Shown: positions 19,199 through 57,182 of the stretch, piece by piece
Position numbering within the stretch: position 1 is the first letter of the stretch
Layout: the number at the start of each line of letters is the position of its first letter
NCBI GenBank assembly: GCA_000002445.1
Contig: CM000208.1
Coordinates: 832,001 to 896,000 of the forward strand
Direction: 5' to 3'
DNA: 64,000 bases
Source of the DNA: Trypanosoma brucei
Taxonomy: Eukaryota
Program-made: the position numbers and the translations under genes
The notes under the pieces: model-generated
The model's input: the letters and a program-made list of their open reading frames with translations, nothing else
Told to the model about the DNA's origin: nothing
The model's database searches: none

Positions 19199-22039
19199 AT
19201 GAGTACCGAGAACGAGGGCGAATCAAAAGAAAACCCCTCGTATCTCACTGTAGAATTAGAGCATGTCGGCCATGTCTCCATCGATGCAATTGAGCACCAC
19301 TACATGGAGTTGCAAAAGGAACTAGCGATGGAGCCACATTTGCGACCACTGCGTGAGGAATATGAGAAGATCCACCGCCTCCTCCGTAAAAGTCACGATG
19401 GGGAGAAGCGCTTGATGGCAAAGATAAAGGAATTAGATCATGACTTGATTACACATGCGGCGAACGTTGAAAGTGCGCTGAAACTCGCTCGGCAAGATGA
19501 GGACGTGATTGAGGCCCTGAGGAGGGAAATAGAAAAGGCCTGGTCACTTGCTGACAGCGCGCATGCTCGTGAAAAGGAAACGCGGGAACAAATACAGGAG
19601 TTGCGCCAGCAGGTGGTGCGTCTTAATGGGTTAGTGGATAAAAACACAAGCAGTACATTGGGACAGGAAAACTTTCTCCGCGATCTTATTAAGGCGAAGA
19701 AAGAGTTTGAAAACGAGCGTCTAATGGCACAAGCTAAGGCGGAGCGGCTCGTGGATGAACGGCTATTTGCTCAGAGGAAGATGCACAAACTGCGAGAGGA
19801 TAGTGAATGTGTGCGGCATAGCCTTGAGAACACGCTCAAGAACTATGAAGGCTGTCTACGTAACCTCTCCGATACCAAACGGGATCGCGAGAGTCTGGAG
19901 CAGCAGGTGCGGGAGTACCGTGTAGAAGCGGATGAACATTTGAAAGAGATAGCAAGCGTCCGTCAATCGGTGGCCGAGTTAGCAAAAGAGGAGGAAAAGC
20001 TGAAAGCACTTGCGCTTTCAGAACGGGATTCTGTGGGGCAATTAGCTAAGCAATTGGAAGAACAACAGGACCGATTTAAGAAAGAGGCTGACAAACTTGC
20101 CGCTGTTGAGGCGCACAATGCAGAAATGAAGCAGGAGATACCAAAGATGAGAATGACGCTAAAGGGCCGGCATGCAGAGGTGGAGCGACTTGCCTTATCC
20201 TTACGAAAGGCTCGTAAAGGAGCCGGGGTCCAGCAGACCGAAATAGACAAGCAGATGCAGACGAGGGCTTCGCTGATGGAACAAACGGAGAAAATGCACA
20301 CCGCTATTGAAGAGCTTCTGCGTACATTAGACGACCACGTCAAAGCGTTGCATGATGAAGAGGTCCGATTGAAGGGAGCCATGCCCATAAAAACAAAACT
20401 CCTCACTGAAAATTCGCGCGTTGATAGTGAGAAGGCTATGATGGAGGGCCAGCGGATGCTGGAAGAGGGTAAGCGACGTAACTTAACCCAACAACTAGAA
20501 AAACTTCTTCGGGATAACGAAACAATGCGAAAGAAAATATTTGAACTGGAACAAAATCAGGCGAAAATCCTTGACAATGGACAGCGAGAGGCTTTGCAGT
20601 ATCATCGGGTGCTTGAGCAAACACGTAAGCAACAAGGACAGGCTAAGTTACTGCAGCAGCAGTTGGAGGACAATGAAAAGCGTCTTAAAGCGCAACAGGA
20701 TTTGCTTGACCGAGTCTCCGCAGACCGCGCACGAACGGAAAAGCGGTTGAAGGAAAGTGAACTTGAGTGTTCTGGGTTGAAGCAGCGGTATAATCACAAT
20801 GGGGAGGAGATTCAGTTGTTGAAGATGCAAATTATAGGCAAGGAGGGCGCACTTTGCCGCATTCATATGGTACGCAAGCAACTTCAGCGTGACATCGCCA
20901 ATGCTGAGGAGCGCGCAAGCCACCTGAAGGAAGACGGTACGAGCGCTACCAACCGCTACGAGACGCTAAAGGGAGAGGTAAAGCAACTCAGTCACTTAAT
21001 AGCCGAGTGTGACGCAGAGAAGAGTAAGTACCAATCTAAATTTGCTGCACTTGTTAACGAACGGAATGTACTTGCTACCCAGTTGGTTCGTCGTAACGAA
21101 GAGCTGCGCCTCCTCCACAGCAAAATACGTTTGCAGGAGTGTAGTATTGAAAAAGGTGCGGAGGACTACAACAAGCGTGTGCGGGCTGTGATGGGGAAGC
21201 GAAGTGAACTTGAAGAGCTGCGACTGCGTTGTCGAGTTGCCCTTGCCCGCATGCTTCACGCGGAAAAACTGAGACGGCGAAAACAAAAAATCGAGCGTGA
21301 CCTCTTTACTGAAAAGCGTCGCTCTCGTGCCCTCGCTGACGAGCTTCAACGTCCTGTAAATGTGCACCGATGGCGGCGACTTGAAGGCAATGCCCCCGAG
21401 ATTCTCGACGGCATTTACAAAGTTCACACTCTAGAACGACAGATACTTAAGAAACAAGATTTGCTCGTGGAAAAGACAAAACAATTGGCTGCTCGCAATG
21501 CAGAATATGAGACTGTTAGGAAAAAGCTTGCCGAACTTCAAGGCCCGGAGGTAGCGGGGGAGTTGAGCTTATATGACGAAAACTTGCAATGTCGTCGCGA
21601 ACAAATACGGGGTCTTGACACCGAACTTCAGGAGGTTGAACAGCACGTGGACGTAGTGGCTGAGGAAGTGAAGCAACTGACAGTAGAGTTATGTGAGGTA
21701 AAGCGGCGGTATTATAATGCGAAGCATAAGAATGACCTGCTCCGCCGTGAGCAAGGTGCTTTCCGCGCCATGTGGGGTGGGTCTTCAGCGGTCGCTAGGA
21801 CTGCACTCGCCGCAATCGAAAACGCTTCGGAGCGCCGGCAGCTCCAGCAACAAGGATCAATTTCCAGTCGTCGGCAACCGCTATGGCGCACGCGGGCGCA
21901 AAAGCGCCGCGAGCAAATTAAACAGGAGGAACAAATCGTTCAGGTACTATCGACTGGTGCACCAGCGCCAAGTTTTCCTCTTCAAGTCCCACCAGGTCAG
22001 CGCATTTTCTTGGGGGGTGGTTTTGCGCTAACTCGGTGA
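19199..22039 (+). CDS. large coiled-coil protein (946 aa), probably cytoskeletal or flagellum/basal-body associated
   Basis: Heptad-rich E/K/R/L/Q composition continues for about 850 aa (strings like LKEIASVRQSVAELAKEEEKLKAL). No enzymatic motifs. Confidence 0.75.
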   Translation: MSTENEGESKENPSYLTVELEHVGHVSIDAIEHHYMELQKELAMEPHLRPLREEYEKIHRLLRKSHDGEKRLMAKIKELDHDLITHAANVESALKLARQDEDVIEALRREIEKAWSLADSAHAREKETREQIQELRQQVVRLNGLVDKNTSSTLGQENFLRDLIKAKKEFENERLMAQAKAERLVDERLFAQRKMHKLREDSECVRHSLENTLKNYEGCLRNLSDTKRDRESLEQQVREYRVEADEHLKEIASVRQSVAELAKEEEKLKALALSERDSVGQLAKQLEEQQDRFKKEADKLAAVEAHNAEMKQEIPKMRMTLKGRHAEVERLALSLRKARKGAGVQQTEIDKQMQTRASLMEQTEKMHTAIEELLRTLDDHVKALHDEEVRLKGAMPIKTKLLTENSRVDSEKAMMEGQRMLEEGKRRNLTQQLEKLLRDNETMRKKIFELEQNQAKILDNGQREALQYHRVLEQTRKQQGQAKLLQQQLEDNEKRLKAQQDLLDRVSADRARTEKRLKESELECSGLKQRYNHNGEEIQLLKMQIIGKEGALCRIHMVRKQLQRDIANAEERASHLKEDGTSATNRYETLKGEVKQLSHLIAECDAEKSKYQSKFAALVNERNVLATQLVRRNEELRLLHSKIRLQECSIEKGAEDYNKRVRAVMGKRSELEELRLRCRVALARMLHAEKLRRRKQKIERDLFTEKRRSRALADELQRPVNVHRWRRLEGNAPEILDGIYKVHTLERQILKKQDLLVEKTKQLAARNAEYETVRKKLAELQGPEVAGELSLYDENLQCRREQIRGLDTELQEVEQHVDVVAEEVKQLTVELCEVKRRYYNAKHKNDLLRREQGAFRAMWGGSSAVARTALAAIENASERRQLQQQGSISSRRQPLWRTRAQKRREQIKQEEQIVQVLSTGAPAPSFPLQVPPGQRIFLGGGFALTR

Positions 22040-38730: not shown

Positions 38731-40108
38731 TGTGGTTGGATTGTTGTTATCATTCACTTATTTTAAAGGGGGAAATATGCTCAAAACTAATCTCATTAAT
38801 ACTACCACCACTGCCTCCCTGCGGCTATAGCGTTTTAAGTGCATTGGGGGGTGGTACATAGACAAAACGTTTTCTCGTCGTTGTAGTTCGAAAATCTTCC
38901 CCCTTCTTATTTTATTTTCCCTTATCGCGCTTATCACTTCGTTCTTAACAGCGCTGATTACTTTCTCTAGCGGGTGTTGTGAAACTGCATGGAAGACTTT
39001 TCTTCTTTCTTTTTCTCCATACGATTATTTCTATCATTAAATATTTCGTTCTTTCTCTTAGTTATTTATACTGTGTTTATCTTCCCTCGTTTTCTAAAAA
39101 CAAAAATGCCTTCTCTGTGTTTAAGTTATTTTTTTTCTTTAAAAAATAAATTATTGTTATTATTATTTGTTGGTTACCGTGTATTCAGCCGTAGAGGCAC
39201 TTTAGTTCCCGCGTTTGAGAGTGAAACCAGAATATTTGTTTAATCTTCACATGCGTAACAAACAGAAACCCCTCGTTACGAGAAGGGATATGAATGCTCC
39301 ATGCGAGAAGAGTAAGCACAAGATTTTATCCCCTGCCACTTTTTTTCTTTTTACACTCCAGTTTCACAGAGTCATAGCACCTACTCCCGGAAGCGCCTCA
39401 CGTGTTCTGATATGGGAGTCACTTTTTCATTTCATTTCATTTTTAATTGCTATCTCTTTTATAAGTGATCCCTCTGTTTCATTAATTTCAAAATCGTTAT
39501 ATTAGCCTTTAAAAACTTTCAGTGTGATCTTTCCGTTGTTGTTTTACCATCCCTTATTCTTCCCACTTTTTTTTTGCTTTTTGATCATATGATCAATTTT
39601 TAAAAACAATATATTATTTCGATTCTTTACTTTATTGATTATTTTTGTTTCTTTTATTGTTTTCTTTACTGTTTGTTTGTTTGTTTTTTTCAGTTGATGA
39701 GATTGTGATTTTGACAGGTTTTGTTTTTTGTTTTGTTCCTCTCCTCCACACCAACGAAAACAGAATGGAATAAATATTCAACAAGGTGAGGAAAGGGAGA
39801 GAATGAGAGATGAGGTGAGGTGAAACGATGTGACATTGCCACTCTGCAGGAAAGATGGTAAAATAACCCATTTCTTGTAATATTATGGCGTTGCGCCTTT
39901 CACATTCGTCACAGCGAAGCCGATACATTTCTTCTTCCGCTTTCCACATACGTCAATTTCCTCTTTTTTTTTTTACCATATATTGATTAATTTTAACTAC
40001 CTAGACAATTGCCGTTTGTGTCAATTCACTTTCTATTACGTTCTTTTCTCTTGTGCCTCAATCTCATATTTTCAAAACCTAATGTAAAGGTTCTACTGTA
40101 AAGGGAGG

Positions 40109-40453
40109 ATGGCACAATCGATAAACCCTGCAGACACGTTAGCGTGTACATACGCTTCTCTAATGCTGAGCGATGCTGGTCTCCCCATCACTGCCGAGAG
40201 CATTAACTCCGCCTGCAAGGCTGCTGGTTTGGAAGTACGTGACACACTGCCCATCCTTTTTGCTCGTTTCCTTGAGAAGAAACCGATCGAAAGCCTTTTA
40301 GCTGCCGCTGCAGCCGTTGCTCCTCAAGAAGGAGCTCTTCCTGCTGCTCCGGCCGCTGCTGCCGCTGGTGGCGCTGCTCCTGCTGCTGCTGACGACAAGA
40401 AGAAGGAGGAAGAAGAGGATGATGACGATATGGGCTTCGGTTTATTTGATTGA
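40109..40453 (+). CDS. RPLP1: 60S acidic ribosomal stalk protein, P1-type (P1/P2 family), 114 aa, copy 1
   Basis: LACTYASLMLSDAGLPITAESINSACKAAGLEVRDTLPILFARFL matches the P1 N-domain ([46 protein letters not shown]). It has an Ala/Pro-rich hinge and the canonical C-terminus KKEEEEDDDDMGFGLFD. Confidence 0.9.
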   Translation: MAQSINPADTLACTYASLMLSDAGLPITAESINSACKAAGLEVRDTLPILFARFLEKKPIESLLAAAAAVAPQEGALPAAPAAAAAGGAAPAAADDKKKEEEEDDDDMGFGLFD

Positions 40454-40731
40454 GCACCCGTTTTGGCGGCGTCGCTTTGAGCAACCTACGACGGACCAAA
40501 GTTGTTTGATTTCATTTTCTTATTTTGTATCCCCAGAAGGCGTTGTGCACTCTTTCTTGTTTTGAATAACTTCTCCTTTGTTACTCGGTATCACGAGTCC
40601 ACACACTTTTCCAACCACACACTAGAGGCTACTCATCGCCGTAAACATTTGTGATGCACTTTGCTCCATCTCCTTTTTTCCTCGTTTGGTATTTGTATGC
40701 ACATGAATATATAGCAGTCTTGCACCCAAGG

Positions 40732-41076
40732 ATGGCACAATCGATAAACCCTGCAGACACGTTAGCGTGTACATACGCTTCTCTAATGCTGAGCGATGCT
40801 GGTCTCCCCATCACTGCCGAGAGCATTAACTCCGCCTGCAAGGCTGCTGGTTTGGAAGTACGTGACACACTGCCCATCCTTTTTGCTCGTTTCCTTGAGA
40901 AGAAACCGATCGAAAGCCTTTTAGCTGCCGCTGCAGCCGTTGCTCCTCAAGAAGGAGCTCTTCCTGCTGCTCCGGCCGCTGCTGCCGCTGGTGGCGCTGC
41001 TCCTGCTGCTGCTGACGACAAGAAGAAGGAGGAAGAAGAGGATGATGACGATATGGGCTTCGGTTTATTTGATTGA
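40732..41076 (+). CDS. RPLP1: 60S acidic ribosomal stalk protein, P1-type, copy 2 (100% identical CDS to copy 1)
   Basis: Identical 345-nt CDS, 623 bp downstream of copy 1. The ORF-track N-terminal extension from 40651 is spurious; the ATG is at 40732. Confidence 0.9.
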   Translation: MAQSINPADTLACTYASLMLSDAGLPITAESINSACKAAGLEVRDTLPILFARFLEKKPIESLLAAAAAVAPQEGALPAAPAAAAAGGAAPAAADDKKKEEEEDDDDMGFGLFD

Positions 41077-45300: not shown

Positions 45301-47335
45301 CAATGTAACTCACCGCTTACTCCTGGCATCGTGTTTCTTTTTTTTTTTTTCCCTTCTCTCCCGTCTTCGTTTTTTTTCTTTTCCGTGCATATATCTTCTC
45401 TTAAGGGGGTTATGCTTATGTTTTATGGTCTCCTCTTCATTTCTTTGTGCACTGTTTGACCCTTTCAGTCTCACACATTATTCGTTTGCTTTTCATCTTT
45501 ATCGTATCATCTGATGGTCGTGTTTTTTCTTCTTCTTTTTACATCCTTTTGTTAATGGTGCCGGGTGCTATCAGTTCCCTTGTTCGTCACGGATGAGTTT
45601 TTTGCGCGCAAGGAGGAGACAAAATGCTGCAGTAACATTGTTGTTTCCCTTATATATATATATATATATATTTTCCTTACTGGCGCTTGTCTAAAGGCAG
45701 GCCACTACGTGCAAAGCATCATAGGAGAAGGTGTAGGGGAATGTCAGAACGAAAATGGCCACATCAACAAATAAAATATGGGCTTATAAACTTAGTGAAT
45801 TTCTTTCTTGCTGCTAATGACGCTTGTGGTGTCTTACCTCTCACCTCCCCCCTTGATTGTATTTTTTACCTTTATGGCTTGACAATCTTTTACCTCCTCT
45901 CTTTTCACTATTTATCTTTATTTTGTTATGCAGGCACTCGAAGGTGCACATTTAGACCTGTTGGACGATCGAATAAGAAAAAAAAACCGTGCGCAAACCG
46001 AGAGACAAAGCAAAATTAACTCGATTGTTTTAAGGGAAGAGGTTGTTGTACCACAAGGAAGGAAAGAAAACAAAGAGAGTGCGAGAAGCGATACTGATAT
46101 ATATATATATATATCACAAGCAAACACACACGCACCGGTATTTGAGAGGATTCGGGAACTCTTCGCGTGAGCCCAGTTGAAGCTTTCCTTTTAGCTTTAG
46201 TTTCAACACTTCGGGTAAGTGAAACTTAGCGGAGGGCACAAGTTGAGCGAAGAAAATTAAAAAAAAAAGAAGGAAGGACATCGAGGAGGAACCGCATTGA
46301 ACCTCCAAAATCGTGTGTTTATAGAAATCCCCGCACTCAGGTCCTCACTGACGTGAAGAAAAGAGAGGGGAGAGCCAACGAAACGTACACAGAAGAAAAT
46401 TTTTTGTCGCACAAATATATATATATTTAAATATTTATTTGTTTATTACATATACACATAAGAAAGGTACTTCAGATACCCAGTGAAGAAGAATCCTGGA
46501 AAAGTAAAAAAAAAAAGAAAGGAGAGAGCAAACAAAAAGAAGTTCGAAGCGTGTGCTTTAGAAGTAACCCACACCTTGAAAGAGTAAAACGTACGATACC
46601 GAAACCATTAGGTCGGATCGTTGCACACACGCGCAAAGAGAGAAACGAAGAGAGAGAGAGAGAGAGCGGGAAGAAAAAACAATAACAATAAGAACCACAT
46701 TAAGAACCTTCACCAGAAGCGGTTAGAGCGCCATTGGGTTAGATACGGCAGAAGTTCCATAGTGGTGCAAAGACACTGGACAGCAGCGAAAGGCACTAGA
46801 AGGGAGTGAAACACAAAAGAAAAAGAAACCGGCTACAATTTGAAAGAAGAAGGGAAAGGAAAAGGAAGGAGGAGGAGGATTTTTTTTTTTAAAGAAGTTG
46901 TAGCTCTTCGGTTAGCAAACTGATATCACAACTTAGGATACACTCACTCCTGACTCACTTAGAAGCGTAAGCAAGGAAAAAATAAAAAGATAAGACGGAA
47001 AACAAATTTCTCTCTAAGTGTGGTAAGAAACTGAACGGAACCGAGAAAGAAAAAAAAAAGAAGTCGCAAGCACAGAAAAGCAAGCGAATTGGTTGAACAC
47101 GAAAACAAGCAGGCGAAAAGGTTAACAGCAAAAAAAAAAAGGTCCACAGACGCACTACACTTACATTGTGAGGGCTCCACAAGCGTTTAGTTTTTTGTTT
47201 ACCTGCCCGTGGCACTACCTCGCGTATTACACGTTTAGGGGGGGGTTGATTCGGATAAGAAACTAAAATAGTAACAGAAGATCGTTTAGACAGACGTTTT
47301 TGATAAAGACCGTAAAAAGGGAGACAGCAGATCAG

Positions 47336-48697
47336 ATGGAGGCATCCGTGACAACAAATGAAATTACTGCTGAACCAGCTGCAAATCAAATGCAACTTTC
47401 TAATGAGTATGCAAGCAGTCGGTTTTCCTTAGCAGTGGCTGAGAAGGTTGGAAACAGAAGTCAAGAAGGCAGTGAAAGTCGTGACGTGGTTGATCACTGG
47501 GGTCAGAGTGTTCTTCAACTTTCAATTGTAGGCCTTGGAGGGTCCCGGGGAAGTTTCGGTAATTTTTCCATTGCTTCGGAGTTACTTTCGCTTGGGGAAC
47601 GCAACGAGGAGGAGCAATCTGTGATGCAGCAACGAGCGCCTCTCACAAATCCGGTTGGTGAAGTCGTGCATGCGACGAGTGGCGCGCGGGGGTTTGCGTT
47701 TTCCCCAGTCCAACGAATTCCCTCAGGTGTTTCTCAAAGAAACGAGGCGTCAATTGGGTATAATGATGACATTAGTCGTTCTTCCTCGTGCTCGTCCGGT
47801 AGTGAAGTGATGAGACAGGAGATGCGTCGTGGTGGCGTTCAAAGAACCGAAGTGAAATTGCATCTTTCGCATTCAAATGCTGACGTTGATGCTGAGGAGG
47901 AAGATATATCGACAATCAGGGCAACACCAACAGGTGGTGCGGTAGACACATTAAATGAGTTGTATGGTATTGATAGATATTTCACTTTTCACTACAACCC
48001 TGAGAGAGTGGTTACGCCAATCGATTGTGGTGATCAATGCAGCGGTGGAGGCAGTGGTGTTTCCACAGTCGCCACCGCTGCAGGATTGGAGAGTCAACGT
48101 GAAAGTGACGATAATAGGGTCGCTATGACCCATGAAGAAGATGAGATTGTGGGCGTGACGGCGGAAGGCGAATTTATTTACCGCCGTGATATTGTTGAGG
48201 GGCCAGACCGGCAGCGATGGCAGTCATTTTACCAGCCTATAAACAGACGGTCCAGTGAGCTCGGCGTTAACGAGTGCGTGCCATCCCTCATTCCCTCTAT
48301 GACCATTAATTCTGCACCAACAAGAGTTGAGTCAGGTCCTGCAACCACTACAGAGCCTTACCCTCAGGATCAGTACAATAACCGCTTTCACCCGCTTCAA
48401 AGTTTCGAACGGGTTGCCACTCAACTTCCGCATCTTTCCCGTGAAGCACCTCACGAGGGATTTACTGAGCGTGAGAGTGAGTGGACAGAAGAAGAAAGGG
48501 AGTCTTACCGGCTACTGATGCGGTACCGCCTGTGCGAAAATGAGGAAGAATTTGAATACGAGAAACTTCTCAATTCTGTGAGCACCTTGCGTGAAACTCT
48601 CCACCGGAAACCTATCGAAATGCTGCAACGGCGCCTTGAGGAAAGGCAGCAATTCGCCCGCTCAGGACTTGGAATGCCGCTTGCGCTCCGTTGGTGA
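47336..48697 (+). CDS. hypothetical protein, about 453 aa, acidic and Ser-rich
   Basis: ORF-track start 47300 is TTG; the first ATG is at 47336 (MEASVTTNE). Composition is complex. No domain recognised. Confidence 0.55.
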   Translation: MEASVTTNEITAEPAANQMQLSNEYASSRFSLAVAEKVGNRSQEGSESRDVVDHWGQSVLQLSIVGLGGSRGSFGNFSIASELLSLGERNEEEQSVMQQRAPLTNPVGEVVHATSGARGFAFSPVQRIPSGVSQRNEASIGYNDDISRSSSCSSGSEVMRQEMRRGGVQRTEVKLHLSHSNADVDAEEEDISTIRATPTGGAVDTLNELYGIDRYFTFHYNPERVVTPIDCGDQCSGGGSGVSTVATAAGLESQRESDDNRVAMTHEEDEIVGVTAEGEFIYRRDIVEGPDRQRWQSFYQPINRRSSELGVNECVPSLIPSMTINSAPTRVESGPATTTEPYPQDQYNNRFHPLQSFERVATQLPHLSREAPHEGFTERESEWTEEERESYRLLMRYRLCENEEEFEYEKLLNSVSTLRETLHRKPIEMLQRRLEERQQFARSGLGMPLALRW

Positions 48698-51600
48698 AGG
48701 TGTACTGGAGTCACGGAGCAAGGCGTAAAGGATCGTATATAACTATTCTCACCCCTTCGTTTCCATTAAAATAAAATGGTAATAATGGAGAAAACTGGAA
48801 AATGTGATTTTGGGGGGGGGAATTGTAAAAGAAATGAGCTGATGACGGCCTCTTCATGTTTGGCGGTGCTATCGGGTCTATTTCGTTCCACTCCTTTGCC
48901 CCTTTTCCAGTAACGTTCTCTTTATTTCTTTACGCCTTTCTTTTTTTGTTTATCATTACCAATATGATTAAACTTCTGTAATACGAAGCTTTATTCTTCA
49001 TAAAATTTTTCCTTTTATGTGGTAACTAGAATGAATCTTGCCCTTACAAGGGCACAAATTCCAGCTTAGCAAATCGTTTTTACATTTTCTTTCCCTTCCC
49101 TTCTCTTTTTTTATTGTTTGGCTACATGTTCCCCCTACCGTACCTTTACTTCCACTTGTACTCCACCTCCGTACAGAAAAAAATCGAGGAGTATAATTAA
49201 CCGACAAATAATAATTATTTATTGGTGCACTCCTTCCTTTCTTATTTTTGTCCCCTTCTCACCTCAAACCGTATTTATTGTGTAACCACATTTAACGTCG
49301 CAGTTCAGCTATCTTAAACACATTCCATATTTTGTACTTTTGTTTGTATTGTGTTACATCGGTTCATTCAAATGGCGTGCGTGTGTGTTTATCTTTATGT
49401 GGTGGGCTAATGAGATGCAAATACACATTTTCCGTTTCCCTTTCTGCGCTTCTCCCTTGTTGATGTTTTTTTTGTTTGTTTTCTCCCTTTCATCTCCTTC
49501 TCTTCCCCCTCCTCAACACATTTTGTGTATGTATTTCCCAAACAACTGCCGTTTTTCTTTCGCTCATCTCGTTCCCTTGTTTTTTTTTTAGAAGTGGGTG
49601 TCCACAGAAGTGACGGGAAAGGCGGCGGAGGTAAAACACAGTTACCGTTGAAACCCAATAGAAGATGAAGCGGATGAATACAAAAAGAAAAAAAATATAA
49701 TAGTTGTGAGGTGATAGGGAAATTGGAGAAACACATTCAGAATTGTTGTGTGGGGAAGATATAGATGGCTCTTTCTTTCTTTCTTTCTTTTTGTCGTTTG
49801 ATTTTATGCAACACTTTGTTGGTGGTACAGTAATACATGTGCTTTTCTTTAATTTTTTGCGTAAATGTTGTGCATGTACGGTGAAGGTAAGGAAGCGCAT
49901 TCAGTGTCGCATTTGCAGAAAATTAATAGCCGTAGTGTGGAGAAGAAGGAAAGAAAAAAAGATGATGATTATGATGATGGGCGATACGCTTACGCATATA
50001 TTTATTTACTTATATATTTATATACAAGCACATGGGGGGGGGGAGAAGACGAAGGAAAGGAAAATGGTGGTGTGGATTAGGAAAGTGGCGCAGCATATTG
50101 AGTTAAGTGTAAATGTATTTGCCACTTAAATATGTGATACATAGCGGTGTGACTCTTCACAGCGAAATCGGTAGCAAAGAAAAGGTGAGGAATGAATTTT
50201 TTTTTTTAAAAAAGAAAAAAATTGTTAAGGTTGCCATGTTGTTTGTCATTTCCCTCCCTCGTAATATCTCTCATTAGCTTTCAACCTGAATTTGTTGTAT
50301 ATGCCATTTTGGACACCTTCTCCTCCATTACTTCCCGTAGCGATGGCTTTGTAGGGAAAAGTGGAAGGAATTCTCATTCGTTTATTTATTTATATTATGA
50401 CAATGTTTGAGATACGTGTGTCCTGCTTTTTTTTTTTTTTTAGACATGATACAAACAAATACATCATATATTTATTTATATAATTATATGTTTGGAGGAG
50501 AATGGGTTCGGTAAGTGAGCGAGAGATATGTGAGGGAACGGTGTTGGCACTTGATTTTTTTTTTTCAATTTATGTTATTGCTTTTTTTTTGGGGGGGGAG
50601 GAGGGGGGCTTTTCATTATTAACACCCGCTGCGTTGAGTTTGCTTCGATATCCCATTTCCTTATTTATGGATGCATAAATAATAAATAATATATATATAT
50701 CTTTTAGAACCAGTGAGAGCAGATGAGGATTGGGAACGAGCAAGTGAATAGAATAAAGTGCGGGACATCGAATTTGTTTATTAATGAAAGCAAAATGTTT
50801 GATCAGTCGCCACCTCTTCGTTTGTCCTTTGTGTCTTTTATATTTTATTTCATTGCTATCCCTGTTCTTATTAACGTTATTATTCTCCTATTCGTGGTTG
50901 TTGGTATTCGTCGTACGTATTTGCGAATGCGTAATCACAAATAATAAAATTAATAACAACATTAATGAGGACAAGTAGCGATGATGGTATACGGTCATTT
51001 TATTATTTGATGATTTATCCTTTTATCTTTTTATTTATTTATTTTTCTTCCTTTCTTCTTTCCTTGTTTTGGAGCACGTCCTGTTCATATCTTTATTTAT
51101 TTATTTTTCCACCACCTCCCCCTCCCCTTCGTTCTTCCCTTTGATTTATTTTGTTGCCATCAATCATTTGCTGGTGGTAAAGTTATATTTGAAAATATAT
51201 GATATGAACTTAAATTGTGAAGGACGTGACGTGGGCAGGAATTTATTAATGGAGGGAAAGGGTAAAAAAAAAAAGATAGCACATTTATTTATTTATATTT
51301 ATTTATACATATGCGCCACAAACCGATGGGGAGAAATGAAAATATCCTTGATTTTGTTTGTGGTTTTCGTCCATTTACATTCATTTTTTTTTCTAATTTA
51401 TGGTCTCATTAACTCTTTCGTTTCTGTGACTTGTTTTTTTTTTTCAGTTGTCGTGGAAGAACCTGCATTATTTTGGTGTATTCAATTAGATATGACAATC
51501 CTCCCCTTTTATGCAATTAATTTCTTTATTATTGTTATTGTTTTGGTCCCGTTTGAAAATGTGGCACGCACCTTACTTTCGCTTCAAATTATAGCGCGAC

Positions 51601-54600
51601 TAAATACTTTTTTCTTTTTCTTTTTTTTGCTTTCCTTTTTTTTAAAAAAAAATATTTATATATATTTATAATCCTCACTAACGGCTTTGAAACCATCTTT
51701 TTATTATCATTTGAGTCGTGTCGTGTCTTTTTTTTTTCTGTTAAAAAAGTATTATTATGATTTTAATTTTTTCTGCAGCGGCATTATTTTAATTCCCTTC
51801 ATTTTTTTATTACCTTTCCGACCTGCCTTACAGGAAGGTTTTTTTTTAAAAAAAAAGAAAAACTGAAGCGGAAAATAATATAAGTAACAATAATAATGGG
51901 TTGAAGGATAATATCAATTTAAAATTATTATTGACATTATGACAGAGGAAATGAGATAAATGATTTATTTTACGTATTTGTTTTATTATCTTACTTGTAT
52001 TTGAGTGAAATTGTCAACTCTTATGTTTATAGAAACATCGCCTGATGTGACAAAGACTATTTTGAAGAAAAATGAAAGAAAAAGCAAACAAAACGTGTTG
52101 ATTTATTACTATTGTTATTATTATTATTATTATGTTGCTGCCGTTTTCATTGTGGATTATTTTCTTTTATTCCCCCTTTTGTATGGTGGTTGTTATAGAG
52201 TGCGTAAGAAAATGCACCCCTCTCTTTTTTTTTTTTAATTTCCGCCTACAGGGTTAAACATTCCTTTGAAAGTTGCGAAAAGCACAAATAAAATGATGAT
52301 AATAATAATAATAATACACCACCTTAAACTCACATATATATATATATATTTTCTCCCACCTTCCCTCCTCCCCTCGTGAATGTGTGTTTCCACACAAGTT
52401 AGCCCTCCTTATTTATTTCTTTTTTTTTTAAAAAAAAGAAATCAAAACAATACTATTTTTTTTTGTGTGTTTTATTTGTTTTATTTATAGAAGGAGGTAT
52501 TAGTGAATATCGTTCTGCATATATGATGTACTGCGGTGCATCATTTGTAGGCATGTTGATTGCTACCTATTGTGTAGTACTTTTTATTTTGATCTGAATG
52601 TTCACATGTATGCAATTCAGAAATTAAAAAAAAATAATGTATATATATATATAAGAAATAAAGGAGAAAAAAAAAGAAAAGAGGGAGGACAAAATGGAAA
52701 AGGAAATTCCGTCGTGTCAAAGTTGCGTTGTATCTCCGCCTTTGCTGCCTTTTTTCTTTCATTTCTTTTTCTTATTTTCCTTCTTTTTTTAATTTTTTTT
52801 TTTTTAAACGGGTGGTGACTTCCATCCTTTCATTTCATCACTCTTTATATTACATTTCATCTCTTCAAGAACTCATTTATTGGTGATGGTTTTGTGTTTG
52901 TTTGTTTTTTTATGCCATAATTTTTTTTTCTAAAAAAATAATAATAATTATTATTAACTATTGTTGTCATTGGGCTGCGTGTAACGCGCGTTGGAGAGTT
53001 TGTTTGAGCGGTATTCTCGACATTAAAGAAAGAAAAGGGGAAGAAAAGGCTGTGCGGACGAATAAATGACAAAACACGGAAGTAAACGAGTACGAACAAA
53101 AAGAAAAAGAAATATGTATTTATATTCATTTATATGTACCATATTTCTTTTTTTTTTTTACGTTTATTTTGTTCAACCATGCGCGTGTATTGTGTAGATG
53201 ATATTAGAAATTCTGTAAGTTTGAGTGGAGGTGACAAAAAAGCTCTTTTTTTTTTCTTGAACTTTCTTTTGGACCATATTTATTTGTTGTGAACTTATTA
53301 CTTGTTACAAAATAATAAAAAACTACCAATGCAAAAATGTTGGGGTTTGAATTATGGGGACGCACGTGTGCTCAAAAAGACAGGAGAAAATGAGGGACAT
53401 GCGGAAAAATAAAGGAGATTTTATGGGTGTTATGGTTTAGAGTTTCATTTTCTTATTGTTTAATTTTTACTTTTCATTTTTTTTTACTTTTTGTTATTAT
53501 TTGCGGTTACTTTTTTTTTTGTGTGCGAATACGCTGTGAAGGTAACTTGCAAGTGAGCCGCGTTGCCCATATTAATATGTTGTATTTTATCTTCCTTTTT
53601 GCTCCCTTTGTATATAGTTAGAGTCATGCATACCCGTATGTTTGTGTGACACTTTTTTGTTTTTTCTTCTTTTTCGATATATTTGTTCATGGGCTTTTGG
53701 CATTTTTTTTTCTGTTTTTATTTTTGTTTTTGTATGTATGTGAGGCATGACAGGCTTCTTAACTTTGTTTCTTCGTCTTCCTCCTCTCTTATCTGTCTTT
53801 TTTGTTACGAAGGAAATTTTTTAAAAAAAATTCCTTCGTTCTCTTTCCCTTTCCCTTTCTCTGTTTCTTTTTCTGTTTTTCCACATTCTATTTTTTTTAT
53901 ATGGTTTTTCATCTTATTTATTTAAGCTGCATGTTTACTTTTGTATAGATGGCGCATATCCGACTAGTTGCAGTGGTGCGAGAAAGAGAGGAAATAAAAA
54001 AAAAAAGAGAAGAAGAGAGGAAGCAAAAATAAATACAAAAGGAGAAAAAAATAAAGTGAGGGGGTTTGGGTTGGGTGGATGAAGGAGTAATCACTACTTT
54101 TTGTTTGTTTTTTTTAGCAATAATTCCGAAACGCGACGAATCAGCTTTAAGTGCTTTACGTACTGATGTTACATCTCAAAAAAAAAAAAGGAAAAAGGTG
54201 AACAAGATACACATACGCAATTTTATTGTCTTTTTTGTTGTTGTTGTTAGAGAGGGAGAGGAGTATGACTATTTGTGGACCCAGAAATAGATTGGCAATC
54301 TTTTTTTTTTTCCTATTTTGGTTGAAAAAGTTTGGCATTCTCAATGCCAAAGAGAACTGAGAAGAAGGTAACACATCATGTCATATATATTTTTTAAAAA
54401 AAGACGCATTGCTTCACTTGCTGCGGTGTATGATTTTGTGTGTATTTGTGGATGGGGATAATAGTGTTGTCACTATACTTAGTTTTGTTAAATCTCGATG
54501 TTAATGTTGTGTCTGTTATGACTATTGCCACTATTAGAAATATTTTAAGGTGATTTTGACATTTTTGTATGGCTGCGGTTTGTTTGTTTGTGTGTGTGTG

Positions 54601-55328
54601 TGTATTTGTGTGGAAGCTTGAGGCATCAGGAGGTTGTGAATCACGTGAAGAATATGCTGTTGTTTTTTTTTTCCGTTAGATGGAATAGTGATGACATCAC
54701 TATATTTCTTTACATCCTTCTTATATATTTTTCTTTTATTATTCTTTACAATACAATACAGCAAACAAATAAATATACAAACACAAACTCAAATTCCTCT
54801 GTACCACAAGGAACTTTATCTGTGAAGGATCTTGCAGTAATGAAAAGGAGGCACATATTTGTGTTTGTTTGCGTTTGAGTGTTTAAGTGGATAACACTGT
54901 TTAGACACCGCTTCAAGTGGTCCTATAGGGAGAATTGGACCATTATTTACAGATTGAAACACCATTCGTTAGGATGTGTTGCCGTCTCTTTGTTTTTTTT
55001 TCTTATCACTTTTGTTTTTATTTTTAAGTTTTCCCCCGTATACACCTATTTCGGATCTTCACGTCCATAATGAAACTCTTTGTACATACCACTCTTTTTC
55101 TTTTTGTGATGTTCGTCACTACTCTCCTGAAAATAAATGTCTCTTATTTTTCTTTTCTTGTGTAATTTAGCGTTTGCCTCCATTATATAAGGAAATACTC
55201 TCCCAAAGTAGCAATAAGTAAAGCCAATAGGGAGGGGAACTGGAAGCCACAGTATATAATACGAAACGCTTTAATATTATCCTTCTCAATATACAAGTGT
55301 CAGCTTTTTTTTTTCCGCTGTGGAGGTA

Positions 55329-57182
55329 ATGGTAATGGCTTGCGGTGCATGGTATGTGATGCGCTTTAATCTATTTATGCAATTATTAGCAGTATGCCTG
55401 ATTACATGCGGTACCACAACTGCCGATACGACCGCCTTTTGCCATGAACTGGAACCATTTTTGGTGCAGACACTTCCTCAGGCATCGGCTCATTTGTTAG
55501 AAACAGCAATCGCTAAGGAAGCCGCAGGAGATAATGTTAATGTAACGTGTGCACTAACGCCGGGGAAAAGTGTTGTTGTACTTTTAGGTTCATCCAATGT
55601 ACATCGCTTCAGCCCACTTCGTAACCCACCACCTGTTATCAAACTGGATACTGCTGATGGCGAGTTCACACATGAAGTCCGTGGCACATTCATGTTTAGA
55701 TATTTTCGCTCGTGGGTGAATGGCTTCCGGGCATATTCATGGACTGATCCTGCTTCCGTTGAGCGGTTCTTCTTCAAGCGACACATTTTCCTTCGGTTTC
55801 GAGTTAGTGATTCGACAGGCAACCCAAATGCGGATATTCACTTGAGTGCTAGTGAAGTGCTCACTATGGCAGGACTTCACAGCATTCGAGTCACCTCCTT
55901 CGCACCAGTTGCTGTGGAAATTCGGTTACGGGGAGGGAAAGAGCCCAAGGAGTGCTCAGACGCAACCTGCAGTAAATACGTTGACGCATTTGCAGAGCAT
56001 AGTGATAAAAGCGCGGGATTAACTCGACTCGAAGTACTTCCGCAGCGCTTCACGTGTTCTCCCGGTTATGGCGCCAATGGGTGGGGGTCGGGAGTTTCAG
56101 GAGGCCCCATGGATGGTGAGGTTTATGCTTTTGAAGAAATTGGTCCATACCGCGGTAGTAACTTGTGGATACCTCAATGGTTGTCTGCATGGCTGGGGCG
56201 GCGGCCTATGATGACTGTTTCTGAGAAGGTTGTGCTTGATGGTATGGGACGCCGTAAATTCCTTTTCCACGCTGAGATCCCCGCGGTTAAACCCGTGTGC
56301 CTTCGTCTCTCTGCCGTTAAGAATGACAATTTGATCGTGGAGTTGGAAGAGTCTACGGTGTTCGATACGTTTTGGCTCAAAATAATGCTACTGTTTGTGT
56401 TGCTGGTATTCATTAAGCCGTGGGTGGAGGAAATACCAGCACTCCAGATATTCATCGCCGGTCTTGGTAGCGTGACACTGCTTTTTGTAGTCACAATACT
56501 TTACGTGCTGAAAAGGTTGCAGGGAATGACTATTGGAAAGGTTGGTCTTGTTGCAATGGCAACACTGGGGGGCACCGCTCTTCTCGCTGAGACATTCTTG
56601 AGTGCTGTAGTTGCCCTTTACTATGCCTTTGTTCATTACGACAATGAGGCAGAGATGATTTTTTATGGGAGCGCCATGCTCCTCGTCTTTGGTCTTACTT
56701 GCGGTTTGCTTTCGAGGCATTACTGCGCCACTTATCTTACGGAGCTTACACGGTGGACATTGCGGCTACTGCAGCTCGCCGTCCTTGCATGTGCAATCAT
56801 GCAGAACCGCGAGGCAACGTTCGCAAGTTTCGTCGCCGCTCTTCTCTTTCACCCACCTCGCATTTTACGGCTCATTCAGTGGTTCTCCTCTTCCAGTTCA
56901 TTGGTGAATAACGAAAATGAACCTCAGGAAACATTTCCCAGTGAGGCGTTGCGCGAGGTTACGTATGTAACACCTCTCTGTATGGAGGGACGTACTGGAA
57001 GGGTTTCCACTATGGATTCGAGGGAAAGATTAGATTTGTATCGTATCAGTGGAAATGAGTACACACATCGTGCTCTTGAGGACCTCGCCTGCCGTGTGAA
57101 CAGCAATCCTGACCGTTACGCTTCAAAAGTGAATGATGCTGGAGGCGTTTTGAATTGGGCCAAAGGCTACCAGTACTCATAG
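55329..57182 (+). CDS. signal-peptide-bearing membrane protein with an about 330-aa luminal domain followed by about 7 TM helices (LUSTR/GPR107/TMEM87-like architecture), about 617 aa
   Basis: ORF-track start 55320 is GTG; ATGs lie at 55329 and 55335. There is a hydrophobic signal peptide (MACGAWYVMRFNLFMQLLAVCLITCG), a Cys-containing ectodomain, then a clustered run of hydrophobic helices from about residue 350. Confidence 0.6.
   Translation: MVMACGAWYVMRFNLFMQLLAVCLITCGTTTADTTAFCHELEPFLVQTLPQASAHLLETAIAKEAAGDNVNVTCALTPGKSVVVLLGSSNVHRFSPLRNPPPVIKLDTADGEFTHEVRGTFMFRYFRSWVNGFRAYSWTDPASVERFFFKRHIFLRFRVSDSTGNPNADIHLSASEVLTMAGLHSIRVTSFAPVAVEIRLRGGKEPKECSDATCSKYVDAFAEHSDKSAGLTRLEVLPQRFTCSPGYGANGWGSGVSGGPMDGEVYAFEEIGPYRGSNLWIPQWLSAWLGRRPMMTVSEKVVLDGMGRRKFLFHAEIPAVKPVCLRLSAVKNDNLIVELEESTVFDTFWLKIMLLFVLLVFIKPWVEEIPALQIFIAGLGSVTLLFVVTILYVLKRLQGMTIGKVGLVAMATLGGTALLAETFLSAVVALYYAFVHYDNEAEMIFYGSAMLLVFGLTCGLLSRHYCATYLTELTRWTLRLLQLAVLACAIMQNREATFASFVAALLFHPPRILRLIQWFSSSSSLVNNENEPQETFPSEALREVTYVTPLCMEGRTGRVSTMDSRERLDLYRISGNEYTHRALEDLACRVNSNPDRYASKVNDAGGVLNWAKGYQYS

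What the first reader, a model, noticed from the sequence alone, without database searches (positions are those of the whole stretch)
48698..55328. 6.6 kb gene-free, AT-rich, low-complexity interval inside a unidirectional gene array
Typical spacers in this window are 0.4-2.7 kb, yet this one is 6.6 kb with no ORF of credible composition on either strand. The only long ORF (51069-51671) is a Phe/Leu/Ile translation of T-rich sequence. It is packed with poly-T/poly-A runs, TTTA/TTTATTT iterations and several T(n)A(n) junctions. It also contains an isolated GC-rich pocket at 52960-53040 with the perfect palindrome AACGCGCGTT, and another at 53330-53420. Possibilities are an extremely long regulatory 3'UTR of the upstream gene (47336-48697), an unannotated non-coding RNA, a decayed retroposon (RIME/ingi/SIDER-like) footprint, or a chromatin boundary within the array.
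Basis: seen in the sequence. Interest (0 to 1): 0.5.

Follow-up and report, generated by a model that had tools for sequence, protein, structure and literature searches.

The report
Known long 3'UTR of Tb927.10.3400
The 6.6 kb "empty" stretch is the unusually long untranslated tail (about 6.3 kb) of a Trypanosoma brucei messenger RNA, already recorded in a published supplementary table as a target of the developmental regulator RBP10, so it is real but not new.

Summary
The window is T. brucei TREU927 chromosome 10. The interval lies between Tb927.10.3400 (CDS 47336-48697) and Tb927.10.3430 (CDS 55329-57182).

The spacer is 6,631 nt, 2.5 times the next largest. It has 33% GC and is T-rich on the sense strand. 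Homopolymer runs, T(n)A(n) junctions and UUAUUUAUU-type repeats are all far above chance. The "GC pockets" are only 42-46% GC, and the palindrome is not significant.

It is non-coding. The two reference ORFs inside it (Tb927.10.3410 and .3420) are broken in T. b. gambiense and T. equiperdum. Indels run at 7.5 per kb against none in the flanking CDSs. There is no Rfam, tRNA, Pfam or dispersed-repeat signal.

Mugo & Clayton 2017 (S2 Table) manually annotated a ~6260-nt 3'-UTR for Tb927.10.3400, with three UAUUUUUU motifs, which I recount exactly. They list the mRNA as RBP10-bound and call 3410 and 3420 "3'-UTR" and "not an ORF". The oversized spacer is syntenically conserved in T. conorhini (4.8 kb) and T. 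theileri (5.8 kb), without sequence conservation.

TriTrypDB annotates only 898 nt, ending at a strong internal polypyrimidine/AG. Alternative processing there remains possible.

Verdict: already known; low interest.

The parts
45934..47335 (+). Annotated 1,402-nt 5'UTR of Tb927.10.3400. It is purine-rich and contains no ATG.
   Evidence: The TriTrypDB table reproduced in PMC11612274 Suppl. Data 2 gives a 5'UTR of 1402 nt and the gene span 878,831..882,492. With an offset of +832,897 the 5' end falls on the first base after the AG at 45932-33, which follows a polypyrimidine tract. No ATG is present, against 11.3 +/- 2.6 in dinucleotide shuffles, and this is the longest ATG-free run in the window.
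47336..48697 (+). CDS of Tb927.10.3400 (453 aa, Trypanosoma-specific, no known domain).
   Evidence: It is an exact match to EAN77763/XP_822591/Q38BQ7 of T. b. brucei TREU927. There is no Pfam or PDB match. Orthologues exist in T. congolense, T. conorhini and T. theileri.
48698..54957 (+). 3'UTR of Tb927.10.3400, about 6,260 nt. The 3' end is approximate.
   Evidence: Mugo & Clayton 2017 S2 Table sheet 2 gives '3_UTR length ~6260', 'UAUUUUU count 3' and 'manual'. My count of TATTTTTT in the interval is also 3. Adding 6260 to 48697 gives 54,957, which lies 28 nt 5' of the polypyrimidine tract that precedes the next gene.
48698..49595 (+). Proximal 898 nt, the 3'UTR as annotated in TriTrypDB.
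   Evidence: The annotated 3'UTR length is 898 nt. The end at 49,595 is the first base after the AG at 49593-94.
49440..49594 (+). Strong internal polypyrimidine region followed by AGAAG. This is a candidate internal trans-splice and polyadenylation signal.
   Evidence: It is 81% pyrimidine over 150 nt, the second most pyrimidine-rich 150-nt window in the 64 kb. It coincides with the database end of the 3400 transcript.
49806..50129 (+). Tb927.10.3410, a 324-nt annotated ORF that is not a gene.
   Evidence: It is the only 324-nt ATG ORF matching the listed cds_size. Mugo & Clayton annotate it as '3'-UTR of 927.10.3400'. The frame is broken by stops and frameshifts in T. b. gambiense and T. equiperdum.
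51204..51671 (+). Tb927.10.3420, a 468-nt annotated ORF that is not a gene.
   Evidence: The sequence printed in S1 Text of PMC5568443, labelled 'probably not an ORF', matches the window at 51204-51671. S4 Table lists it as 'Not an ORF, 3_UTR'. The start codon is lost and an early stop appears in T. b. gambiense, and the frame is shifted in T. equiperdum.
52454..52461 (+). UAUUUUUU (RBP10 recognition motif), copy 1.
53889..53896 (+). UAUUUUUU, copy 2.
54388..54395 (+). UAUUUUUU, copy 3.
54985..55040 (+). Polypyrimidine tract with downstream AGs. It is the presumed signal for trans-splicing of Tb927.10.3430 and, by coupling, for polyadenylation of the long 3400 mRNA.
   Evidence: It is 82% pyrimidine (sequence). 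The coupling rule is stated in the PMC9380746 abstract. Use of this site is inferred.
55329..57182 (+). CDS of Tb927.10.3430 (617 aa, multi-pass membrane protein of the nuclear envelope and spindle).
   Evidence: It is an exact match to EAN77766/Q38BQ4. The ID is assigned from position and from the published descriptions.

Best explanation
The interval is the very long 3' untranslated region (about 6.26 kb) of the Tb927.10.3400 mRNA, followed by about 0.37 kb of intergenic sequence and 5'UTR of Tb927.10.3430.

The array is transcribed polycistronically. The 3400 mRNA is trans-spliced at the AG at 45,932-33. In its long form it is polyadenylated just upstream of the polypyrimidine tract at about 54,985, which directs trans-splicing of the next gene. 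That gives an mRNA of about 9 kb: a 1.4-kb 5'UTR, a 1.36-kb CDS and a 6.3-kb 3'UTR.

The UTR acts as a large landing platform for RNA-binding proteins. RBP10 is shown to bind by pull-down. The many U-rich and UUAUUUAUU-type elements and the internal polypyrimidine tracts are inferred to recruit others. These proteins would set the stability, translation and processing of a low-abundance mRNA (about 1.4 copies per bloodstream-form cell).

Shown: the interval is non-coding; the published UTR assignment; the RBP10 association; the conserved spacer length. Inferred: the exact poly(A) site, which elements matter, and the direction of regulation.
For: (1) Identity. The flanking proteins exactly match TREU927 chromosome 10 proteins.

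(2) Published curation. In PMC5568443 S2 Table, Tb927.10.3400 is enriched at least 3-fold in both RBP10 pull-downs (3.36 and 3.69). Tb927.10.3410 is annotated '3'-UTR of 927.10.3400', and Tb927.10.3420 is 'not an ORF / 3_UTR'.

(3) Independent agreement. I find exactly 3 TATTTTTT in 48698-55328, all 3.7 kb or more past the stop codon. The CDS reads and the 3410 reads are co-enriched to the same degree (3.4-3.7 against 3.2-4.1), as expected if they sit on one RNA. Read density over 3410 is 73-74% of the CDS density in the unbound fractions (computed from counts).

(4) Non-coding. There are 49 indels against T. b. gambiense (7.5 per kb), 40 of them not multiples of 3. The two flanking CDSs have none. 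Both annotated ORFs are broken in sister subspecies. No six-frame similarity exists between the syntenic intervals of three species. Nothing in Pfam reaches its cut-off.

(5) Sense-strand T-richness (AT skew -0.18) matches the other 3'UTR and intergenic spacers of the array.

(6) The spacer after the orthologue is the local outlier in other species too. It is 4,792 nt in T. conorhini, where neighbouring spacers are 0.3-1.4 kb. It is 5,821 nt in T. theileri, where they are 0.6-1.4 kb.

(7) Such UTRs are a known class. The median T. brucei 3'UTR is 400-500 nt, about 6% exceed 2 kb, some reach 5 kb or more, and RBP10's is 7.3 kb.
Against: TriTrypDB annotates only an 898-nt 3'UTR, ending at 49,595 at a canonical polyY/AG. 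Some transcripts may therefore end there.

In the S5 table, read density over 3410 is only 29-31% of the CDS density in bloodstream forms (from counts).

Reads over 3410 fall in procyclic forms (log2 -1.12, padj 7e-6), while reads over the CDS do not (log2 +0.20, not significant). The CDS and the distal UTR therefore do not always behave as one unit.

The three UA(U)6 motifs are no more than composition predicts (expected 4.6-8.4). RBP10 RNAi did not significantly change the mRNA. Regulation by RBP10 is therefore not demonstrated.

The ~6260 figure is a manual estimate from read coverage, not a mapped poly(A) site. I could not inspect RNA-seq data myself.
Confidence: 0.85

Rival explanations
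1. The interval is processed in two parts. A substantial share of the precursor is polyadenylated near 49.5 kb and trans-spliced at the AG at 49,593. This would give a short-UTR 3400 mRNA plus a separate capped, polyadenylated, non-coding RNA of about 5.4 kb (the 'Tb927.10.3410/3420' transcript) derived from the UTR. This is compatible with the main explanation as an isoform mixture.
For: The database 3' end of 3400 falls on the first base after an AG that follows the second most pyrimidine-rich 150-nt stretch in the window. Four of the ten most pyrimidine-rich 150-nt windows lie in the interval. DRBD18 depletion is known to produce exactly such shortened mRNAs, plus trans-spliced 3'UTR-derived RNAs, for more than 200 genes. 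Reads over 3410 and over the CDS differ in their procyclic/bloodstream regulation. In main text 3410 is named, and 3400 is not, among eight RBP10-bound genes drawn from the 23 transcripts commonly changed during selection for monomorphism.
Against: Manual curation saw one continuous UTR. The CDS is co-enriched with RBP10 even though all UA(U)6 motifs are distal. The database boundary may only reflect an automatic rule around the annotated ORF 3410. No splice-site data could be inspected.
Confidence: 0.3
2. The interval is a decayed retroposon (ingi/RIME/DIRE/SIDER) footprint.
For: Only the general A/T-rich, run-rich look of the sequence.
Against: The ten longest ORFs give no reverse-transcriptase or endonuclease similarity. 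Stop codons occur about every 22 codons in the one frame checked on each strand (98 and 104 stops per ~2,210 codons). Only low-complexity (TA)n and (GT)n matches link the interval to the rest of the 64 kb. The long spacer exists at the same syntenic place in T. conorhini and T. theileri, so it predates any T. brucei-specific insertion. Direct comparison with retroposon consensus sequences was not possible.
Confidence: 0.03
3. The interval is an internal transcription-unit boundary or chromatin element, with termination and re-initiation inside a head-to-tail array.
For: The spacer is oversized and conserved in length across species. It holds many T(n)A(n) junctions and a short GT-rich patch at 54,578-54,623.
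Against: Genes on both sides are on the same strand. There is no tRNA gene. RNA from the interval is detected and co-purifies with the upstream CDS. The composition resembles the other UTR spacers.
Confidence: 0.03
4. The interval contains real small protein-coding genes (Tb927.10.3410, .3420) or a structured non-coding RNA gene.
For: The reference genome annotates two ORFs. There is a sub-threshold hairpin hit (MIR408, 29 bits against a gathering score of 64) at 52654-52781.
Against: Both ORFs are disrupted in sister subspecies. Their composition is non-coding-like. Nothing in Pfam reaches its cut-off. Rfam gives zero hits at gathering thresholds. The hairpin folds with z = -1.96 only and pairs a purine run with a pyrimidine run. 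There are no tRNAs.
Confidence: 0.03

Closest known systems
RBP10 (Tb927.8.2780) 7.3-kb 3'UTR and similar very long trypanosome 3'UTRs (e.g. ZC3H22)
   Same: It is a multi-kilobase 3'UTR in a polycistronic array. It is AT/U-rich, carries many internal polypyrimidine tracts and is bound by RNA-binding proteins. It belongs to a low-abundance mRNA.
   Different: The encoded protein is a Trypanosoma-specific protein with no recognisable domain, not an RNA-binding protein or kinase. No reporter dissection exists. No developmental regulation of the CDS reads is seen in the RBP10 data set.
RBP10 target mRNAs carrying UA(U)6 (Mugo & Clayton 2017)
   Same: It is listed among mRNAs enriched at least 3-fold in both RBP10 pull-downs and has three UAUUUUUU motifs.
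   Different: The motif count is at or below the compositional expectation. The mRNA is not procyclic-specific and did not respond significantly to RBP10 RNAi or ectopic expression.
DRBD18-dependent long-3'UTR mRNAs with cryptic internal processing sites
   Same: It has several strong internal polypyrimidine tracts. One coincides with an alternative annotated 3' end.
   Different: Membership in the DRBD18-affected set could not be checked, because no supplementary tables are held.
Class II AU-rich elements (overlapping UUAUUUAUU nonamers) of metazoan mRNAs
   Same: There are nine UUAUUUAUU nonamers and eight UAUUUAUUUA, 10-50 times the expectation.
   Different: They may be simple (TATT)n microsatellite slippage. 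Function in this UTR is untested.

Membership tests
Trypanosome long 3'UTR | Lies on the sense strand between a stop codon and the polypyrimidine/AG signal of the next gene in the same transcription unit | tested here: met
   The stop codon is at 48695-97. The next strong terminal polyY tract is at 54,985-55,040, ahead of the ATG at 55,329. All genes are on the + strand.
Trypanosome long 3'UTR | No protein-coding capacity | tested here: met
   Indel pattern and broken ORFs in subspecies. No cross-species six-frame similarity. Nothing in Pfam reaches its cut-off.
Trypanosome long 3'UTR | Continuous transcript coverage linking the CDS to the distal sequence, with one main poly(A) site at the distal end | not testable with these tools
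   This rests only on literature. Manual annotation gives '~6260', and 3410 and 3420 are called 3'-UTR. TriTrypDB disagrees with 898 nt.
RBP10 target mRNA | Enrichment in RBP10 pull-down, and UA(U)6 in the 3'UTR | tested here: met
   The motif was counted here: 3 copies. The enrichment of 3.36 and 3.69 comes from the paper's table. The motif is not over-represented.
RBP10 target mRNA | Abundance or translation responds to RBP10 loss or gain | tested here: not met
   In the published values, all four log2 changes are not significant (padj 0.19-0.96).
ingi/RIME/DIRE/SIDER retroposon | Remnants of reverse transcriptase or endonuclease coding sequence | tested here: not met
   Pfam scan of the ten longest ORFs gave only sub-threshold transmembrane-like noise.
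ingi/RIME/DIRE/SIDER retroposon | Dispersed repeated copies | tested here: not met
   Only low-complexity matches within the 64-kb window. This is a limited test, since one window is not the genome.
ingi/RIME/DIRE/SIDER retroposon | Conserved ~79-nt 5' signature, poly(A) tail and target-site duplication (defining features recalled from my own knowledge, not checked against a paper) | not testable with these tools
Rfam non-coding RNA families (snoRNA, snRNA, etc.) | Covariance-model score at or above the gathering threshold | tested here: not met
   Zero hits in the whole window. The best sub-threshold hit is 29 bits against 64.
Polycistronic transcription-unit boundary | Strand switch or tRNA gene at the site | tested here: not met
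Polycistronic transcription-unit boundary | H2A.Z/H4K10ac or H3.V/base J enrichment | not testable with these tools
   No chromatin data are available.

The most novel reading that the evidence does not exclude
The distal ~5.4 kb, from the AG at 49,593 to about 54,957, may be released as its own spliced-leader-capped, polyadenylated non-coding RNA. Its level would be regulated separately from the Tb927.10.3400 coding mRNA: lower in procyclic forms and lower after selection for monomorphism. Choice between the 0.9-kb and 6.3-kb UTR isoforms would then be a developmental switch. The oversized spacer conserved across Trypanosoma would be maintained for that purpose.
Probability: 0.15. Interest if true: 0.45.

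Novelty: already known. Interest (0 to 1): 0.2.

Why it matters
In trypanosomes almost all gene control is post-transcriptional, and very long 3'UTRs mark tightly regulated genes.

This UTR belongs to a Trypanosoma-specific gene of unknown function. According to published tables, RNAi against it reduces fitness, most strongly during differentiation, and it carries clade-specific changes in monomorphic lineages.

The practical lesson concerns annotation. Tb927.10.3410 and Tb927.10.3420 are not genes. Expression changes reported for 3410, for example in monomorphism selection, actually report on the 3400 3'UTR. The database UTR of 898 nt conflicts with manual curation of about 6.3 kb.

None of this changes current understanding of trypanosome gene expression.

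Tried and rejected
Searches that found nothing:
- Rfam at gathering thresholds on the whole window, and at lenient E-values on the interval, gave nothing real.
- tRNA scan found none.
- Bacterial promoter and terminator scans were at chance level and are irrelevant to a trypanosome.
- Pfam on the flanking proteins and on the ten longest interval ORFs gave nothing above its cut-offs.
- PDB sequence search with the 3400 protein gave nothing.

Cross-species comparisons:
- BLASTN and six-frame BLASTP among the T. brucei, T. conorhini and T. theileri intervals gave only low-complexity matches.
- A profile search for more orthologues of the downstream gene returned only the same two proteins, so no further species could be added.
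- The T. congolense orthologue has no contig on record.

Features examined and dismissed:
- The hairpin at 52645-52800 has z = -1.96, with 8 of 200 shuffles folding as well, so it is not convincing.
- The GC 'pockets' and the palindrome are not significant.

Literature dead ends:
- Accession-number search found nothing.
- Searches aimed at gene IDs through the DHHC/ankyrin neighbour failed.
- Supplements of the lncRNA catalogue paper and of the DRBD18 paper are not held.
- The nanopore lncRNA paper and PMC8982893 do not mention these genes in their held supplements.
Full report
**Identity of the window.**
The proteins encoded at 47336-48697 and 55329-57182 are exact matches to T. brucei brucei TREU927 proteins EAN77763/Q38BQ7 and EAN77766/Q38BQ4. 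Both lie on the 4,054,025-bp chromosome 10 contig (nearest relatives).

A TriTrypDB export reproduced in Supplementary Data 2 of PMC11612274 identifies Q38BQ7 as Tb927.10.3400. It gives the gene span Tb927_10_v5.1:878,831..882,492(+), a transcript of 3,662 nt, an annotated 3'UTR of 898 nt and a 5'UTR of 1,402 nt.

Together with the entry for CMF76b (window 19199-22039), this fixes the offset from window to chromosome at +832,897. The offset checks itself. The annotated 5' end falls at window 45,934, the first base after an AG that follows a polypyrimidine tract.

The downstream gene is Tb927.10.3430, a multi-pass membrane protein of the spindle and nuclear envelope.

**Checking the observation.**
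- The CDS-to-CDS spacer is 6,631 nt. The other spacers in the window are 0.34-2.69 kb.
- It has the lowest GC (0.330), the highest T (0.396) and the highest density of homopolymer runs of 8 or more (5.7 per kb).
- Against a first-order Markov model of the interval itself, T runs of 8 or more number 28 against 7.9, A runs of 8 or more 10 against 1.0, and T(5+)A(5+) junctions 6 against 0.46.
- TATTTATTTA occurs 8 times against 0.15 expected, and TTATTTATT 9 times against 0.7-0.9.
- The one long ORF (51069-51671) is 41% Phe+Leu+Ile and has 31% GC with no coding-like codon-position pattern.
- The 'GC-rich pockets' are only 0.46 and 0.42 GC. AACGCGCGTT (52983-92) is one of 27 ten-base palindromes, and about 0.5 GC-rich ones are expected by chance.

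The description is therefore accurate, apart from the emphasis on those pockets.

**Is anything encoded there?**
- No Rfam family reaches its threshold anywhere in the window.
- A lenient search finds only a sub-threshold plant-miRNA-like hairpin at 52654-52781. It pairs a purine run with a pyrimidine run and folds only marginally better than shuffles (z = -1.96).
- There are no tRNAs.
- There are no dispersed repeats other than (TA)n and (GT)n, and only short microsatellites.
- Nothing in Pfam reaches its cut-off on the ten longest ORFs.

The gap in accession numbers, and the gene calls in T. b. gambiense, showed that reference annotations do place hypothetical ORFs in the interval. In TREU927 these are Tb927.10.3410 (49806-50129) and Tb927.10.3420 (51204-51671).

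I aligned TREU927, T. b. gambiense DAL972 and T. equiperdum OVI across the locus. The interval carries 49 indels against gambiense (7.5 per kb, 40 of them not multiples of three). The two flanking CDSs carry none. Both ORFs acquire stops, frameshifts or a lost start in the sister taxa. The interval is non-coding.

**What it is.**
Supplementary tables of Mugo & Clayton 2017 (PMC5568443) settle most of the question.
- In S2 Table sheet 2 (mRNAs enriched at least 3-fold in both RBP10 pull-downs), Tb927.10.3400 has ratios of 3.36 and 3.69 and about 1.44 mRNAs per bloodstream cell. The entry gives '3_UTR length ~6260', 'UAUUUUU count 3' and 'manual'.
- Tb927.10.3410 (ratios 3.24 and 4.07) is annotated '3'-UTR of 927.10.3400'.

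I recount exactly three TATTTTTT in the interval, at 52454, 53889 and 54388. Adding 6260 to 48697 gives 54,957, just 5' of the polypyrimidine tract at 54,985-55,040 that precedes Tb927.10.3430. This fits the rule that trypanosome polyadenylation sites are set by the downstream splicing signal.

All three motifs lie 3.7 kb or more beyond the stop codon, yet the CDS reads are as enriched as the 3410 reads. The RBP10-bound molecules are therefore most simply the long isoform. This step is my inference.

**Evolution.**
The orthologue in T. conorhini is followed by a 4,792-nt gene-free spacer, where neighbouring spacers are 0.3-1.4 kb. In T. theileri the spacer is 5,821 nt including 148 N, where neighbours are 0.6-1.4 kb. 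In both species the next gene is the orthologue of Tb927.10.3430.

The three intervals share no nucleotide or six-frame similarity beyond low complexity. ORFs in the other two species' spacers have no Pfam match. Length and position are conserved, but sequence is not. This is what one expects of a regulatory UTR built from short degenerate elements. It argues against a recent insertion.

**Open point: isoforms.**
- TriTrypDB ends the 3400 transcript at window 49,595. This is the first base after an AG that follows the second most pyrimidine-rich 150-nt stretch in the 64 kb.
- Four of the ten most pyrimidine-rich 150-nt windows are inside the interval.
- Clayton's laboratory showed that such internal tracts are normally masked. 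When DRBD18 is depleted, more than 200 mRNAs switch to shortened 3'UTRs, and trans-spliced, polyadenylated RNAs derived from the 3'UTR appear.
- In the RBP10 paper's tables, read density over 3410 is 73-74% of the CDS density in one data set and 29-31% in another. Reads over 3410 fall about 2-fold in procyclic forms (padj 7e-6) while CDS reads do not.
- Tb927.10.3410, but not 3400, is named in main text among transcripts that change during selection for monomorphism.

A mixture of long and short isoforms, or a separate distal RNA, is therefore possible. I could not test it.

**Regulation is not demonstrated.**
The UA(U)6 count is at or below the compositional expectation of 4.6-8.4. RBP10 RNAi or ectopic expression did not significantly change the mRNA.

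**Comparison with known systems.**
Very long 3'UTRs are a recognised feature of T. brucei. The median is 400-500 nt, about 6% exceed 2 kb, some reach 5 kb or more, and RBP10's is 7.3 kb. They are mostly found on mRNAs for RNA-binding proteins and kinases.

This one is at the upper end and belongs to a Trypanosoma-specific protein with no detectable domain. That protein is flagged in published lists for a differentiation-biased RNAi fitness defect and for clade-specific mutations in monomorphic lineages.

**Verdict.**
The remaining value is a correction of annotation: 3410 and 3420 are not genes, and the 898-nt and ~6,260-nt UTR figures conflict. There is also a modest chance of regulated alternative processing.

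Noticed in passing
window 45,928-47,336 (+): The annotated 1,402-nt 5'UTR of Tb927.10.3400 contains no ATG at all. The ATG-free run of 1,408 nt is by far the longest in the window (the next is 399 nt). Dinucleotide shuffles give 11.3 +/- 2.6 ATGs, with a minimum of 4 in 1000. The run starts 5 nt before the splice-acceptor AG and ends at the start codon. The leader is purine-rich (A 0.40, G 0.24). The ATG-free leader is kept in T. b. gambiense (1,433 nt), and an 804-nt ATG-free leader precedes the T. conorhini orthologue.
   Followed up: partly
whole window; in the interval at 50197, 51636, 51839, 52420, 53817, 54390: T(5+)A(5+) junctions occur 11 times in non-coding DNA of the window: 6 in the interval (0.9 per kb) and 5 elsewhere (0.2 per kb). 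The reverse arrangement A(5+)T(5+) never occurs. Both motifs are their own reverse complement, so this is not a strand effect. The T. conorhini and T. theileri intervals have none.
   Followed up: partly
window 48,698-49,595 versus 48,698-54,957: The TriTrypDB 3'UTR annotation for Tb927.10.3400 (898 nt) conflicts with the manual estimate (~6,260 nt). Tb927.10.3410 and .3420 persist as 'hypothetical protein' genes. Expression changes reported for 3410 really concern the 3400 UTR.
   Followed up: yes
window 47,336-48,697 versus L001: The Tb927.10.3400 CDS differs from T. b. gambiense at 17.6 substitutions per kb. This is close to the rate in its own 3'UTR (22.4) and 2.7 times that of the neighbouring Tb927.10.3430 CDS (6.5). 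The protein is evolving fast, with conserved islands (GYNDD, GVTAEGEFIYRRD, a C-terminal helix ending LRW).
   Followed up: partly
window 40,106-40,405 and 40,729-41,028: Two 300-nt direct repeats, 100% identical and 623 nt apart, lie in the 38.7-41.4 kb spacer. By synteny with T. conorhini (two tandem Ribosomal_60s genes upstream of the TLDc gene), these are probably tandem acidic ribosomal protein genes that fell below my ORF length cut-off.
   Followed up: no
window 52,654-52,781: A purine run (GGAGAAAAAAAAAGAAAAGAGGGAGG) and a pyrimidine run about 70 nt downstream can pair into a long imperfect hairpin. This gives sub-threshold Rfam hits to plant miRNA precursor models (29 bits against a gathering score of 64). 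The fold z-score is only -1.96.
   Followed up: yes
L004 4180-10000: The T. theileri syntenic spacer contains 148 N (an assembly gap), so its 5.8-kb length is approximate.
   Followed up: no
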